From Escherichia phage vB_EcoM_G17: 64,000 bases of DNA. A model generated the notes under the pieces. The model ran no database searches, was not told the DNA's origin, and was given only the letters and a program-made list of their open reading frames with translations. A program made the translations under genes and the position numbers. The DNA is taken from sequence record MK327931.1; one strand, 5' to 3'. Below are positions 58,923 to 60,265 of the stretch, in pieces (the stretch's first letter is position 1; each line of letters starts with the position of its first letter).

Positions 58923-59453
58923 TTATTCAAGTATAGTAATTTCAATTAAACGAATTTCGATAAACTCGTTTTCAGTTTCCCATGACGTGCCAAATTTCTT
59001 TTCAAGTTCAGATTTCACATCACTTTTAAATTTTCCCATAGTATTAGGAATAATTTGTTTGGTTAATTTGTCGTAACCACAATAAAACATAGGTTTCTCC
59101 CTTCGAGATATTAGCTGAACAAAATCTTTTGGATATGCAGGTATGTTATGCATCACTTCATGAATACACTCAGTACTTGAATCTTGTACTTTGTACATTA
59201 CATTAAGTTTACCTCTGAAATTTGCGGTCATATCAACAATAGTTCCTTTACCCGATTTAAGTAAAGTTCCATTCTTTGAATGAGAGCAATAAAATACCTC
59301 ATCACCAATATTAGGATAATACAAATTAAATTCTAATTCAGATTTTACAGCCAGCCGTTTGAAACTTTCTGTACGTTTTATATAAGTTTGGTATTTGTTT
59401 ATGTTCAAAAGAATATCTCTCTTAGTAAATGTGATATAACTGGCATAGTCCAT
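58923..59453 (-). CDS. hypothetical protein (176 aa)
   Basis: ORF; N-terminus overlaps end of methyltransferase gene. Confidence 0.55.
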   Translation of the reverse strand: MDYASYITFTKRDILLNINKYQTYIKRTESFKRLAVKSELEFNLYYPNIGDEVFYCSHSKNGTLLKSGKGTIVDMTANFRGKLNVMYKVQDSSTECIHEVMHNIPAYPKDFVQLISRREKPMFYCGYDKLTKQIIPNTMGKFKSDVKSELEKKFGTSWETENEFIEIRLIEITILE

Positions 59454-60265
59454 CCATTCCCAAGCATTTTGTATGCTTGTGTCTTACTAGACACTTTAAA
59501 GAAATCTTCAGGAACACCCTGTAATTTACAACATTCTACTACACTTAAGTGTCTATAGTCAATATTTCTTTTGCCATTCTCTAATAGATATTGACGACTG
59601 ATCACTGGGTCACGAAACACCAATTGTCGTCTGGATTTATTAAAGTACTGGTTACAATCACCACCTTTAAAATAGTTAGCATCTATACAGTACGAAGCGG
59701 TTCTGTCAGTGTACCAACCATCTTCAATAATATCTTGAAGTTTAGGTGCATTGGATAATGCAGGTGGTATAAAAAGCTTATCAGTACTGTACCAGTAATA
59801 TCTCTGCCTGAAGTGAGGCGTATAATGCTGGGAGTTTATCAGTACTGGCGTGATTCCTAAAATACTATTAATGTATTCTTTGAAATCTTCCTTCATTTTA
59901 ACATTTTCAAACAGAAATTTCAAGTTAGGATTGAGACTTTTGATATGATCAAAAATTTCAACCATTACTAAAAATAACTGCCCACGTATATCATTTAAAC
60001 CACCCTGTTTACCTGCAACTGACCAGGCTTGACATGGGAAACCACCCATTAATAAATCTATTTTATCCCACTCAATATCCCATTCTCTCCACTTAGTTAC
60101 ATCACCCAATTGGATAATATCAGGAAAGTTAGCTTGAGATTCAGCTATTGCGTACTTGTCAATTTCGGATGAATAATATTTTTCAACTGGGATACCAGCA
60201 TCTTGCAATGCCATATATCCCACACTCATTCCATTAAAAAGAGAAAGTACTCGGATAGGTTTCAT
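59405..60265 (-). CDS. DNA (cytosine-5)-methyltransferase
   Basis: Motif I-like LSLFNGMSVG, motif IV GGFPCQAWSVAG, motif VI ENV, QRYYWY, motif X LGNGWTMPV. Confidence 0.85.
   Translation of the reverse strand: MKPIRVLSLFNGMSVGYMALQDAGIPVEKYYSSEIDKYAIAESQANFPDIIQLGDVTKWREWDIEWDKIDLLMGGFPCQAWSVAGKQGGLNDIRGQLFLVMVEIFDHIKSLNPNLKFLFENVKMKEDFKEYINSILGITPVLINSQHYTPHFRQRYYWYSTDKLFIPPALSNAPKLQDIIEDGWYTDRTASYCIDANYFKGGDCNQYFNKSRRQLVFRDPVISRQYLLENGKRNIDYRHLSVVECCKLQGVPEDFFKVSSKTQAYKMLGNGWTMPVISHLLREIFF

What the first reader, a model, noticed from the sequence alone, without database searches (positions are those of the whole stretch)
59405..60265. Orphan C5-cytosine methyltransferase
The ORF has the PCQ motif (GGFPCQAWSVAG), ENV and the C-terminal GNGW motif, so the call is secure. 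No restriction endonuclease gene is obvious beside it, suggesting an orphan methyltransferase used for protection against host restriction. Its target is unknown. The enriched palindrome AGTACT contains a single cytosine, so it is worth testing as a target, but that link is only a guess.
Basis: partly seen in the sequence, partly recalled or inferred. Interest (0 to 1): 0.55.

Follow-up and report, generated by a model that had tools for sequence, protein, structure and literature searches.

The report
Known orphan cytosine methyltransferase, jumbo phage
The ORF is a real, conserved, stand-alone DNA cytosine-5 methyltransferase of the E. coli jumbo phage Sharanji. It is already annotated and published, and the suggested link to the enriched AGTACT palindrome is not supported by data from close relatives.

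Summary
The window is Escherichia phage Sharanji (Asteriusvirus, 350 kb). The ORF at 59405-60265(-) is Sharanji_gp251, annotated 'modification methylase HaeIII' and mentioned in the Sharanji paper. The call is secure:
- Pfam PF00145, E=4e-38.
- Motifs I, IV (PCQ), VI (ENV), VIII and X (GNGW) are present.
- AlphaFold pLDDT is 94.
- dN/dS is about 0.1 across the RaK2-like clade.

No nuclease is recognisable beside it, here or around family homologues, so 'orphan' holds.

New points:
- The enzyme has a minimal target-recognition domain. Its closest solved structures are DNMT3A/B/C catalytic domains, not HaeIII, and GGCC is depleted and GCGC absent. The HaeIII label is unsupported.
- AGTACT is about 9.5-fold enriched (180 vs 19). 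This holds across the whole clade and the sites are under DNA-level purifying selection.
- Published nanopore native-versus-amplified comparison of two relatives, whose orthologues are 76-78% identical with a near-identical recognition domain, found only GATC, CCWGG (5mC) and TGCAT modified. Neither AGTACT nor CpG was reported.
- AGTA(5mC)T would also be a McrBC target in the K-12 isolation host.

The most likely target is CCWGG. CpG, reported as 'data not shown' for RaK2, is the main rival. The finding is already known and of low interest. The clade-wide AGTACT excess and GCGC absence are the more intriguing, separate observations.

The parts
59405..60265 (-). C5-cytosine DNA methyltransferase CDS (286 aa) = Sharanji_gp251 / WNN14532.1
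   Evidence: ORF list; Pfam PF00145 E=4e-38; 100% identical to OR545507.1 107182-108042; AlphaFold pLDDT 94, pTM 0.91
60218..60238 (-). motif I, FNGMSVG (aa 10-16), AdoMet binding
   Evidence: F10 and G12 invariant in an 89-sequence family alignment
60029..60037 (-). motif IV, PCQ (aa 77-79), catalytic Cys78
   Evidence: P77 and C78 invariant. An intein is inserted exactly before Cys78 in the UE-S1 orthologue
59900..59908 (-). motif VI, ENV (aa 120-122)
   Evidence: invariant in the family alignment
59792..59809 (-). motif VIII, RQRYYW (aa 153-158)
   Evidence: aligns with DNMT3 'RARYFW'
59558..59788 (-). minimal target-recognition region (aa 160-236) with conserved core SYCIDANYFKGGDxNQYFNKSRRQLVF
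   Evidence: Family alignments. It lacks the roughly 45-55 aa segment (K[ST]RCLTT...) found in the roughly 320-330 aa family members.
59450..59461 (-). motif X, GNGW (aa 269-272)
   Evidence: G269 and N270 invariant
60303..60332 (-). sigma-70-like promoter candidate with extended -10 (TTGGAA-18-TGnTATAAT) just upstream of the CDS
   Evidence: Consensus scan, 10/12 matches with TG. This is a consensus match only; the number of such sites in the region equals the shuffle expectation.
58923..59453 (-). downstream ORF gp250 (176 aa) overlapping the methyltransferase 3' end by 49 nt; unknown function, no nuclease signature
   Evidence: Homologues occur only in Asteriusvirus-like contigs. The AlphaFold model has pLDDT 48.6 and is unusable.
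60318..60608 (-). upstream ORF gp252 (96 aa), unknown function

Best explanation
gp251 is a functional, solitary phage DNA (cytosine-5) methyltransferase. It uses the standard mechanism: Cys78 of PCQ attacks C6 of a flipped-out cytosine and AdoMet donates the methyl group. It has an unusually small, DNMT3-like target-recognition domain. It is probably transcribed from its own sigma-70-type promoter and methylates replicating phage DNA, so that progeny resist methylation-sensitive host nucleases. The target is a short motif shared by the whole RaK2-like clade. The best-supported candidate is the Dcm-type site CCWGG, possibly CCNGG given how rare CCSGG is. That would protect against EcoRII-type enzymes, would not depend on host Dcm, and would avoid creating R-5mC sites that McrBC cuts. 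What is shown: family membership, intact catalytic motifs, fold, purifying selection, and the absence of a recognisable partner nuclease. What is inferred: activity, timing of expression, target and biological role.
For: Identity and integrity:
- Pfam, NCBIfam and PHROG hits.
- All catalytic motifs present.
- Confident model.
- dN/dS of 0.09-0.14 against six orthologues.
- Orthologues present in Asteriusvirus, Mimasvirus, Alcyoneusvirus and the Erwinia and Xanthomonas relatives.

Small recognition domain:
- The best sequence and fold matches are DNMT3A/B/C catalytic domains (E about 1e-23, TM about 0.79).

Target:
- Hallingskeid has two predicted methyltransferases, one of which is the orthologue DMFGBAAK_CDS0275. 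It has exactly two modified motifs, GATC (6mA) and CCWGG (5mC, confirmed with a Dcm model).
- The recognition-domain core is nearly identical between Sharanji and Hallingskeid.
- CCWGG is at expectation in Sharanji (34 vs 37.6) and is not avoided in any clade member. GGWCC, CCSGG, GGSCC, GGNCC, CCGG and GGCC are depleted and GCGC is absent.
- Established knowledge: McrBC cleaves R-5mC DNA. Sharanji was isolated on McrBC+ K-12 MG1655, which fits C-5mC-WGG but not AGTA-5mC-T, GG-5mC-C or most 5mCpG.
Against: - No methylation data exist for Sharanji.
- The authors of the Erwinia-phage study say host Dam and Dcm could account for GATC and CCWGG.
- The RaK2 paper reports 'methylated CmpG' by bisulfite, as data not shown.
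- GCWGC and GCSGC are not avoided either, so non-avoidance of CCWGG is not specific.
- With a higher-order Markov expectation, CCWGG is mildly low, O/E 0.63-0.84.
- The protein is not an orthologue of E. coli Dcm: NF007772 scores 21 bits against a cut-off of 710.
- A five-base site is a lot for so small a recognition domain.
Confidence: 0.55

Rival explanations
1. It is a CpG (or CG-containing short motif) methyltransferase, working like the DNMT3 catalytic domain it most resembles.
For: The top 50 PDB fold matches and the best sequence matches are all CpG-specific DNMT3A/B/C. The RaK2 paper, whose orthologue is 64% identical, states that bisulfite analysis found methylated CmpG and that only enzymes insensitive to Dam, Dcm, CpG and EcoKI methylation cut the DNA. 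CpG is moderately low and CA/TG high in Sharanji and RaK2 (rho 0.76-0.79 and 1.22). Polarised C>T changes are 1.8-fold more frequent at CpG (30/903 vs 145/7736).
Against: The RaK2 data were not shown and the sentence is garbled. The nanopore study of two closer relatives did not report CG, although a two-base motif may escape motif finders. Transversions at CpG are equally elevated (0.019 vs 0.008), so the substitution signal is not deamination-specific. CpG is near expectation in GAP32, CBB and XbC2 (0.92-0.96). Dense 5mCpG would be attacked by McrBC, McrA and Mrr in the K-12 host (established knowledge). CG-containing palindromes are still avoided: GCGC has 0 occurrences and CCGG is at 0.46.
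Confidence: 0.2
2. It methylates the enriched palindrome AGTACT (or GTAC), giving the genome a dense epigenetic mark.
For: AGTACT is 9.5-fold enriched in the window and 8-12.5-fold enriched in every RaK2-like phage sampled; every sampled phage except Serratia phage BF was confirmed to carry the orthologue. ECGD1, whose homologue is only 52% identical and has a longer recognition domain, shows no enrichment. The sites are under DNA-level purifying selection: 77% are conserved against 46% for all hexamers, and they fall in all codon phases.
Against: Native-versus-WGA nanopore analysis of Hallingskeid and Kaldavass found no AGTACT signal, although Hallingskeid has about one site per 245 bp. AGTA-5mC-T is an R-5mC site, so about 1000 doubly methylated sites would make the genome an ideal McrBC substrate in K-12 MG1655 (established knowledge). 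A six-base palindrome is unlikely for a 286-aa enzyme with a DNMT3-sized recognition domain. Co-occurrence within one clade is phylogenetically non-independent.
Confidence: 0.05
3. It does not contribute detectable site-specific 5mC to virion DNA. Either it acts on RNA or tRNA in the manner of DNMT2, or it acts only on host DNA or only transiently.
For: The only 5mC motif seen in relatives is one that host Dcm could make. The clade has lost about 50 aa of the family's recognition domain. These phages carry many tRNA genes. One database record labels an orthologue DNMT2.
Against: DNMT2 matches are far weaker (E of 1e-9 or weaker) than DNMT3 and the bacterial DNA methyltransferases HhaI and HaeIII. 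Strong purifying selection and a conserved recognition-domain core fit a defined nucleic-acid target but do not say which one. No positive evidence exists for an RNA substrate.
Confidence: 0.08
4. It is half of a cryptic phage restriction-modification pair whose nuclease is the overlapping downstream ORF gp250.
For: gp250 overlaps the methyltransferase 3' end by 49 nt. It has weak similarity to the ORFs that follow the methyltransferase in XbC2 and RaK2. The total absence of GCGC in the clade could reflect a phage-encoded nuclease somewhere in the genome.
Against: gp250 has no Pfam, PHROG or NCBIfam nuclease hit. It is confined to Asteriusvirus-like contigs, and the downstream gene differs in size and sequence among clade members. 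Its AlphaFold model is too poor to judge. Family homologues are solitary in other phages.
Confidence: 0.03

Closest known systems
C5-methyltransferases of RaK2-like jumbo phages (121Q gp91, phAPEC6, RaK2 gp194, GAP32_390, CBB, Hallingskeid CDS0275)
   Same: These are direct orthologues, 64-99.7% identical. They have the same length of about 285-297 aa, the same motifs and the same recognition-domain core. They share a conserved local gene neighbourhood; for example the gp253-like gene lies upstream in all of them. All are annotated as DNA cytosine methyltransferases thought to give protective methylation.
   Different: Nothing substantive. Sharanji's copy lacks the intein that interrupts the UE-S1 orthologue and, by inference from the same split tblastn match (aa 78-286 only), those of TH47, A4, JNE01 and ph0011.
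Mammalian DNMT3A/3B/3C catalytic domain
   Same: These are the best solved-structure matches by sequence (E about 2e-23, aligned end to end) and by fold (TM about 0.79, 27% identity). The domain size of about 285 aa is the same, the recognition domain is very short, and motif VIII (RxRYFW/RQRYYW) and the C-terminal GxxW-xPVIxHL helix are similar.
   Different: There are no PWWP or ADD regulatory domains. The recognition-loop residues are not conserved (alignment). CpG specificity and oligomerisation are untested. Identity is only about 27%.
E. coli Dcm / M.EcoRII (CCWGG)
   Same: They possibly share the target, since 5mC was found at CCWGG in two relatives, and the same C5 chemistry.
   Different: The protein is not an orthologue. 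The Dcm subfamily model NF007772 scores 21 bits against a cut-off of 710, and only the PCQ-ENV segment aligns. Dcm is about 470 aa with a large recognition domain, whereas this protein is 286 aa.
M.HaeIII (GGCC), the name on the GenBank record
   Same: The catalytic core is shared: PF00145, with PDB 1DCT matching at E=1.8e-17.
   Different: The match is weaker than to DNMT3 and does not extend over the recognition domain. GGCC is depleted in the phage (16 vs 42 expected), which would be unnecessary if the site were protected. GG-5mC-C is a McrBC substrate (established knowledge). The label looks like an automatic best-name transfer.

Membership tests
DNA (cytosine-5) methyltransferase superfamily (Pfam PF00145 / TIGR00675) | Profile score above the curated threshold | tested here: met
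   PF00145 scores 132 bits against 22. TIGR00675 scores 120 bits against 100.65.
DNA (cytosine-5) methyltransferase superfamily (Pfam PF00145 / TIGR00675) | Motif IV Pro-Cys catalytic nucleophile, motif VI ENV, motif I FxGxG, motif VIII (Q/R)xRxR, motif X GN(G/S) | tested here: met
   All are present at aa 77-79, 120-122, 10-16, 153-158 and 269-271. They are invariant in the 89-sequence alignment.
DNA (cytosine-5) methyltransferase superfamily (Pfam PF00145 / TIGR00675) | Rossmann-type methyltransferase fold with a small DNA-recognition lobe | tested here: met
   The AlphaFold model has pLDDT 94. Foldseek gives TM about 0.79 to DNMT3 catalytic domains.
DNA (cytosine-5) methyltransferase superfamily (Pfam PF00145 / TIGR00675) | AdoMet-dependent 5mC formation in DNA | not testable with these tools
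   Indirect evidence only: dN/dS is about 0.1, and 5mC was reported in the DNA of relatives.
Eukaryotic DNMT3 family | N-terminal PWWP and ADD chromatin-reading domains plus a C-terminal catalytic domain | tested here: not met
   The protein is 286 aa and consists of the catalytic domain alone. No other Pfam domain is found.
Eukaryotic DNMT3 family | CpG specificity through recognition-loop and catalytic-loop contacts | not testable with these tools
   The recognition loop aligns poorly. The only hint is the unshown bisulfite result for RaK2.
Dcm / M.EcoRII subfamily (NCBIfam NF007772) | Subfamily profile score above the cut-off | tested here: not met
   21.4 bits against a cut-off of 710.
M.HaeIII-type GGCC methylase (record annotation) | Recognition-domain homology to M.HaeIII and protected, hence unavoided, GGCC sites | tested here: not met
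   The match to 1DCT/3UBT is weaker than to DNMT3 and patchy beyond motif VIII. GGCC O/E is 0.38 in the window and it is depleted in all relatives.
Type II restriction-modification system | Cognate restriction endonuclease gene adjacent to the methyltransferase | tested here: not met
   Ten flanking ORFs have no nuclease family hit; the two immediate flanking ORFs were also scanned against NCBIfam. Homologues in other contigs are also solitary. The fold of gp250 could not be modelled, pLDDT 48.6, so a novel nuclease is not strictly excluded.

The most novel reading that the evidence does not exclude
The methyltransferase marks the AGTACT palindrome. That site is roughly 8-12.5-fold enriched, under DNA-level purifying selection and conserved across the RaK2-like clade. 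The mark would give the 350-kb genome a dense epigenetic 'self' signature, about one site per 350 bp, read by phage replication, packaging or host-DNA-degrading machinery. The relatives' nanopore survey would have to have missed it.
Probability: 0.04. Interest if true: 0.7.

Novelty: already known. Interest (0 to 1): 0.2.

Why it matters
The gene itself adds little. It is annotated in GenBank and has been listed as a protective methyltransferase in at least five papers on this phage group. Three practical points follow from this check.

1. The 'HaeIII' name on the record should not be read as GGCC specificity.
2. Phage-therapy or cloning work with Asteriusvirus DNA should expect Dcm-type, or possibly CpG, 5mC. 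Strains and enzymes should be chosen accordingly.
3. The enzyme is a compact, DNMT3-sized bacterial-virus C5-methyltransferase. Its specificity could be settled with one expression experiment.

The compositional signatures seen on the way are unexplained and appear unreported in the searchable literature. They are the AGTACT excess with site conservation and the complete absence of GCGC, both seen in all eight RaK2-like genomes sampled (seven host genera). They deserve their own follow-up.

Tried and rejected
1. Context-dependent substitution test. I compared Sharanji with ECO103 4-12-1 and polarised changes with TH47, using 26,521 usable sites and 616 changes. C>T at CpG is 1.8-fold higher, but transversions at CpG rise just as much. 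The result is inconclusive for CpG methylation, and there are too few CCWGG sites to test.

2. Inferring specificity from a partner nuclease in homologues. Two family members on NCBI contigs (P0101, P0114) lie in phage contexts with no nuclease. The 120 best homologues carry no informative names.

3. Transfer of specificity from M.SpyI. This enzyme is CCNGG-specific (PMC10082018) and is a 30%-identical full-length hit. Only the catalytic core aligns and the recognition domain does not. Rejected as evidence.

4. Arn (McrBC inhibitor) lead. The CBB ORF annotated 'anti-restriction nuclease' has no tblastn match in the window or in the other fetched loci. Dropped.

5. Fold of the downstream ORF gp250. 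It has only four homologues and the AlphaFold pLDDT is 48.6, so no fold search was attempted.

6. Dinucleotide signatures. CpG rho is 0.76-0.96 and differs among clade members. This is not diagnostic.

7. Whether Serratia phage BF carries the orthologue. BF shows AGTACT at 44 vs 5.5 and GCGC at 0. I did not establish whether it has the gene, because that would need the whole genome.

8. Literature. No paper in the library links AGTACT to these phages.

Full report
**Identity of the window and the ORF.** Window 58000-62000 is 100% identical to Escherichia phage Sharanji (OR545507.1, Asteriusvirus, 350,079 bp). It is 97-99.9% identical to 121Q, PBECO4, phAPEC6, slurp01 and other jumbo coliphages. 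The flagged ORF runs 59405..60265 on the minus strand and encodes 286 aa. It is Sharanji_gp251 / WNN14532.1, annotated 'modification methylase HaeIII'. The Sharanji paper names it as a genome-protection gene (PMC11895373). The orthologues in phAPEC6, UE-S1, RaK2 and CBB are described the same way in their papers. The finding is therefore already known at the level at which it was stated.

**Is the methyltransferase call sound?** Yes.
- Pfam PF00145 gives E=4.1e-38.
- TIGR00675 scores above its cut-off.
- phrog_116 matches at 1e-60.
- The canonical motifs are all present and invariant or nearly so in an 89-sequence family alignment. They are I (FNGMSVG, aa 10-16), IV (PCQ, aa 77-79), VI (ENV, aa 120-122), VIII (RQRYYW, aa 153-158) and X (GNGW, aa 269-272).
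- AlphaFold2 with that alignment gives pLDDT 94 and pTM 0.91.
- Orthologues are 64-79% identical in RaK2, GAP32, CBB, XbC2, Hallingskeid and Kaldavass.
- dN/dS is 0.09-0.14, so the gene is under strong purifying selection.
- A sigma-70-like promoter with an extended -10 lies directly upstream at 60332..60303(-). This is a consensus match only.

**Is it an orphan?**
- The five ORFs on each side have no Pfam or PHROG function, and the two immediate flanking ORFs have no NCBIfam hit either.
- The downstream ORF gp250 (58923..59453) overlaps the methyltransferase by 49 nt.
- gp250 is confined to Asteriusvirus-like contigs. It has only weak, partial similarity to the downstream genes of XbC2 and RaK2. 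It could not be modelled, pLDDT 48.6.
- Two more distant family members looked up in public contigs sit among phage genes with no nuclease.
- The 'type I' and 'type III restriction' genes listed in the Sharanji paper are gp430 and gp331, far outside the window.

'Orphan' is supported. The caveat is that a novel nuclease fold in gp250 is not formally excluded.

**What kind of C5-methyltransferase is it?**
- By sequence, the best solved relatives are the catalytic domains of DNMT3C, 3A and 3B. E is about 2e-23 and the DNMT3B/3C alignments run end to end. They rank ahead of M.HhaI and M.HaeIII, which score about 1e-17 with alignments confined to the N-terminal half or patchy beyond it.
- By fold, all top 50 PDB matches are DNMT3A/B/C, with TM about 0.79.
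- The reason is the very short recognition domain. Compared with the wider phage family of about 320-330 aa (for example ECGD1, P0101, P0114), the RaK2-like clade lacks a 45-55 aa segment. It keeps a conserved core, SYCIDANYFKGGDxNQYFNKSRRQLVF.
- It is not a Dcm orthologue: NF007772 scores 21 bits against 710.
- Nothing supports the 'HaeIII' label. GGCC is depleted (16 vs 42) and GCGC does not occur at all (0 vs 26-50 expected).

**The AGTACT link.** The enrichment is real and large.
- The window has 180 sites against 18.9 +/- 4.6 in shuffles. They are evenly spread, with a preference for cAGTACTg.
- It is a clade-wide property: RaK2 99/8.7, GAP32 98/9, CBB 129/10, XbC2 124/11, Hallingskeid 85/6.8, TH47 123/14, Serratia phage BF 44/5.5.
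- Sites fall in all three codon phases and in intergenic DNA. They are conserved between Sharanji and TH47 at 77%, against 46% for all hexamers. This indicates selection on the DNA motif itself.
- ECGD1, which has a 52%-identical, longer homologue, shows no enrichment.

This co-occurrence is the only thing in favour of AGTACT as the target. Three things count against it.
1. Nanopore native-versus-WGA analysis of Hallingskeid and Kaldavass found modification only at GATC (6mA), CCWGG (5mC) and, in Kaldavass, TGCAT (PMC11780129). The Hallingskeid orthologue is DMFGBAAK_CDS0275, one of the two methyltransferases in that paper's table. Its recognition-domain core is almost identical to Sharanji's. 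AGTACT occurs about every 245 bp in that genome, so a signal would be hard to miss.
2. AGTA-5mC-T is an R-5mC site. McrBC of the isolation host K-12 MG1655 would be expected to cut such DNA (established knowledge of McrBC specificity).
3. A six-base site is improbable for so small a recognition domain.

**Most likely target and rivals.** CCWGG is the best-supported candidate.
- It is the only 5mC motif detected in two close relatives, one of which has exactly two methyltransferases and two motifs.
- It is at expectation in Sharanji (34 vs 37.6) and unavoided in all clade members. GGWCC, CCSGG, GGSCC, GGNCC, CCGG and GGCC are depleted.
- C-5mC-WGG is invisible to McrBC.

The weaknesses are these.
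- Host Dcm could explain the signal, as the authors of that study say.
- GCWGC and GCSGC are not avoided either.
- The enzyme is unrelated to Dcm outside the catalytic core.

CpG is the main rival. The RaK2 paper states that bisulfite analysis found 'methylated CmpG', as data not shown, and the DNMT3 resemblance fits. A polarised substitution analysis gave a 1.8-fold C>T excess at CpG, but transversions rose equally, so it is inconclusive. Transfer of specificity from M.SpyI (CCNGG) failed because only the catalytic core aligns. My rough weights are CCWGG/CCNGG 0.4-0.55, CpG 0.2, no site-specific 5mC in virion DNA (RNA substrate or transient action) about 0.08, AGTACT/GTAC about 0.05, a cryptic nuclease partner in gp250 about 0.03, and any other target the remainder.

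**Verdict.** The feature is already known and ordinary for this phage group. The value added here is as follows.
- A correction of the HaeIII label.
- Recognition of the DNMT3-like minimal architecture.
- A ranked, testable target hypothesis.
- Several side observations: clade-wide AGTACT excess with site conservation, total absence of GCGC, and an intein at the catalytic cysteine in some orthologues.

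Noticed in passing
window 1-64000 (180 sites); also L002-L005, L008, L009, L017, L018: AGTACT is roughly 8-12.5-fold over-represented in every RaK2-like jumbo phage sampled; the hosts are Escherichia, Klebsiella, Cronobacter, Pectobacterium, Xanthomonas, Erwinia and Serratia. Sites are evenly spread, fall in all codon phases and in intergenic DNA, and show a cAGTACTg preference. Individual sites are conserved far above background (77% vs 46% between Sharanji and TH47). No paper in the library mentions this. The function is unknown; candidates are a dimeric DNA-binding protein site or a packaging or compaction signal.
   Followed up: partly
window 1-64000; L002-L005, L008, L009, L017, L018: GCGC does not occur once in about 350 kb sampled from eight RaK2-like genomes, against roughly 13-45 expected per stretch. 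In the window, 26 GC-rich hexamer palindromes are absent, with a summed expectation of 89. The avoidance is independent of host genus. That hints at a phage-intrinsic cause, such as a phage nuclease that degrades host DNA, rather than restriction by any one host.
   Followed up: partly
L007:1250-3130 (Escherichia phage UE-S1); by inference from the same split tblastn match also TH47, A4, JNE01, ph0011: The orthologous methyltransferase carries a 340-aa intein (Hint plus LAGLIDADG homing endonuclease). It is inserted exactly before the catalytic Cys of the PCQ motif: GGFP|C...intein...|CQAWSV. Sharanji's copy has no intein.
   Followed up: yes
window 57913-58907 and 60923-63455, minus strand: At least eight small ORFs (125-180 aa), in two tandem runs either side of the methyltransferase, share a C-terminal motif of the type (E/D)Ex(F/L)FQ(Q/R/L)S(T/L)(I/V). 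They give weak cross-hits to the same PHROGs. This is a paralogous gene family of unknown function flanking the methyltransferase.
   Followed up: no
window 58896-58918: A perfect 10-bp inverted repeat, AAATCCACGC-AAT-GCGTGGATTT, lies between gp250 and gp249. It is terminator-like or a protein-binding hairpin.
   Followed up: no
L005 (Xanthomonas phage XbC2): TGCA is strongly depleted in XbC2 (40 vs 167 expected) but not in the other clade members. Its close relative Kaldavass has an extra methyltransferase and an unexplained modified motif, TGCAT (PMC11780129).
   Followed up: no
window 1-64000: GATC is about two-fold depleted (98 vs 189), even though the phage is reported to encode a Dam-type N6-adenine methyltransferase elsewhere in its genome.
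   Followed up: no
L004:3326-3529 (Pectobacterium phage CBB): A 67-aa ORF is annotated 'anti-restriction nuclease', like the T4 McrBC inhibitor Arn. It lies 17 kb upstream of the CBB methyltransferase. No homologue is detectable in the Sharanji window or the other fetched loci.
   Followed up: yes
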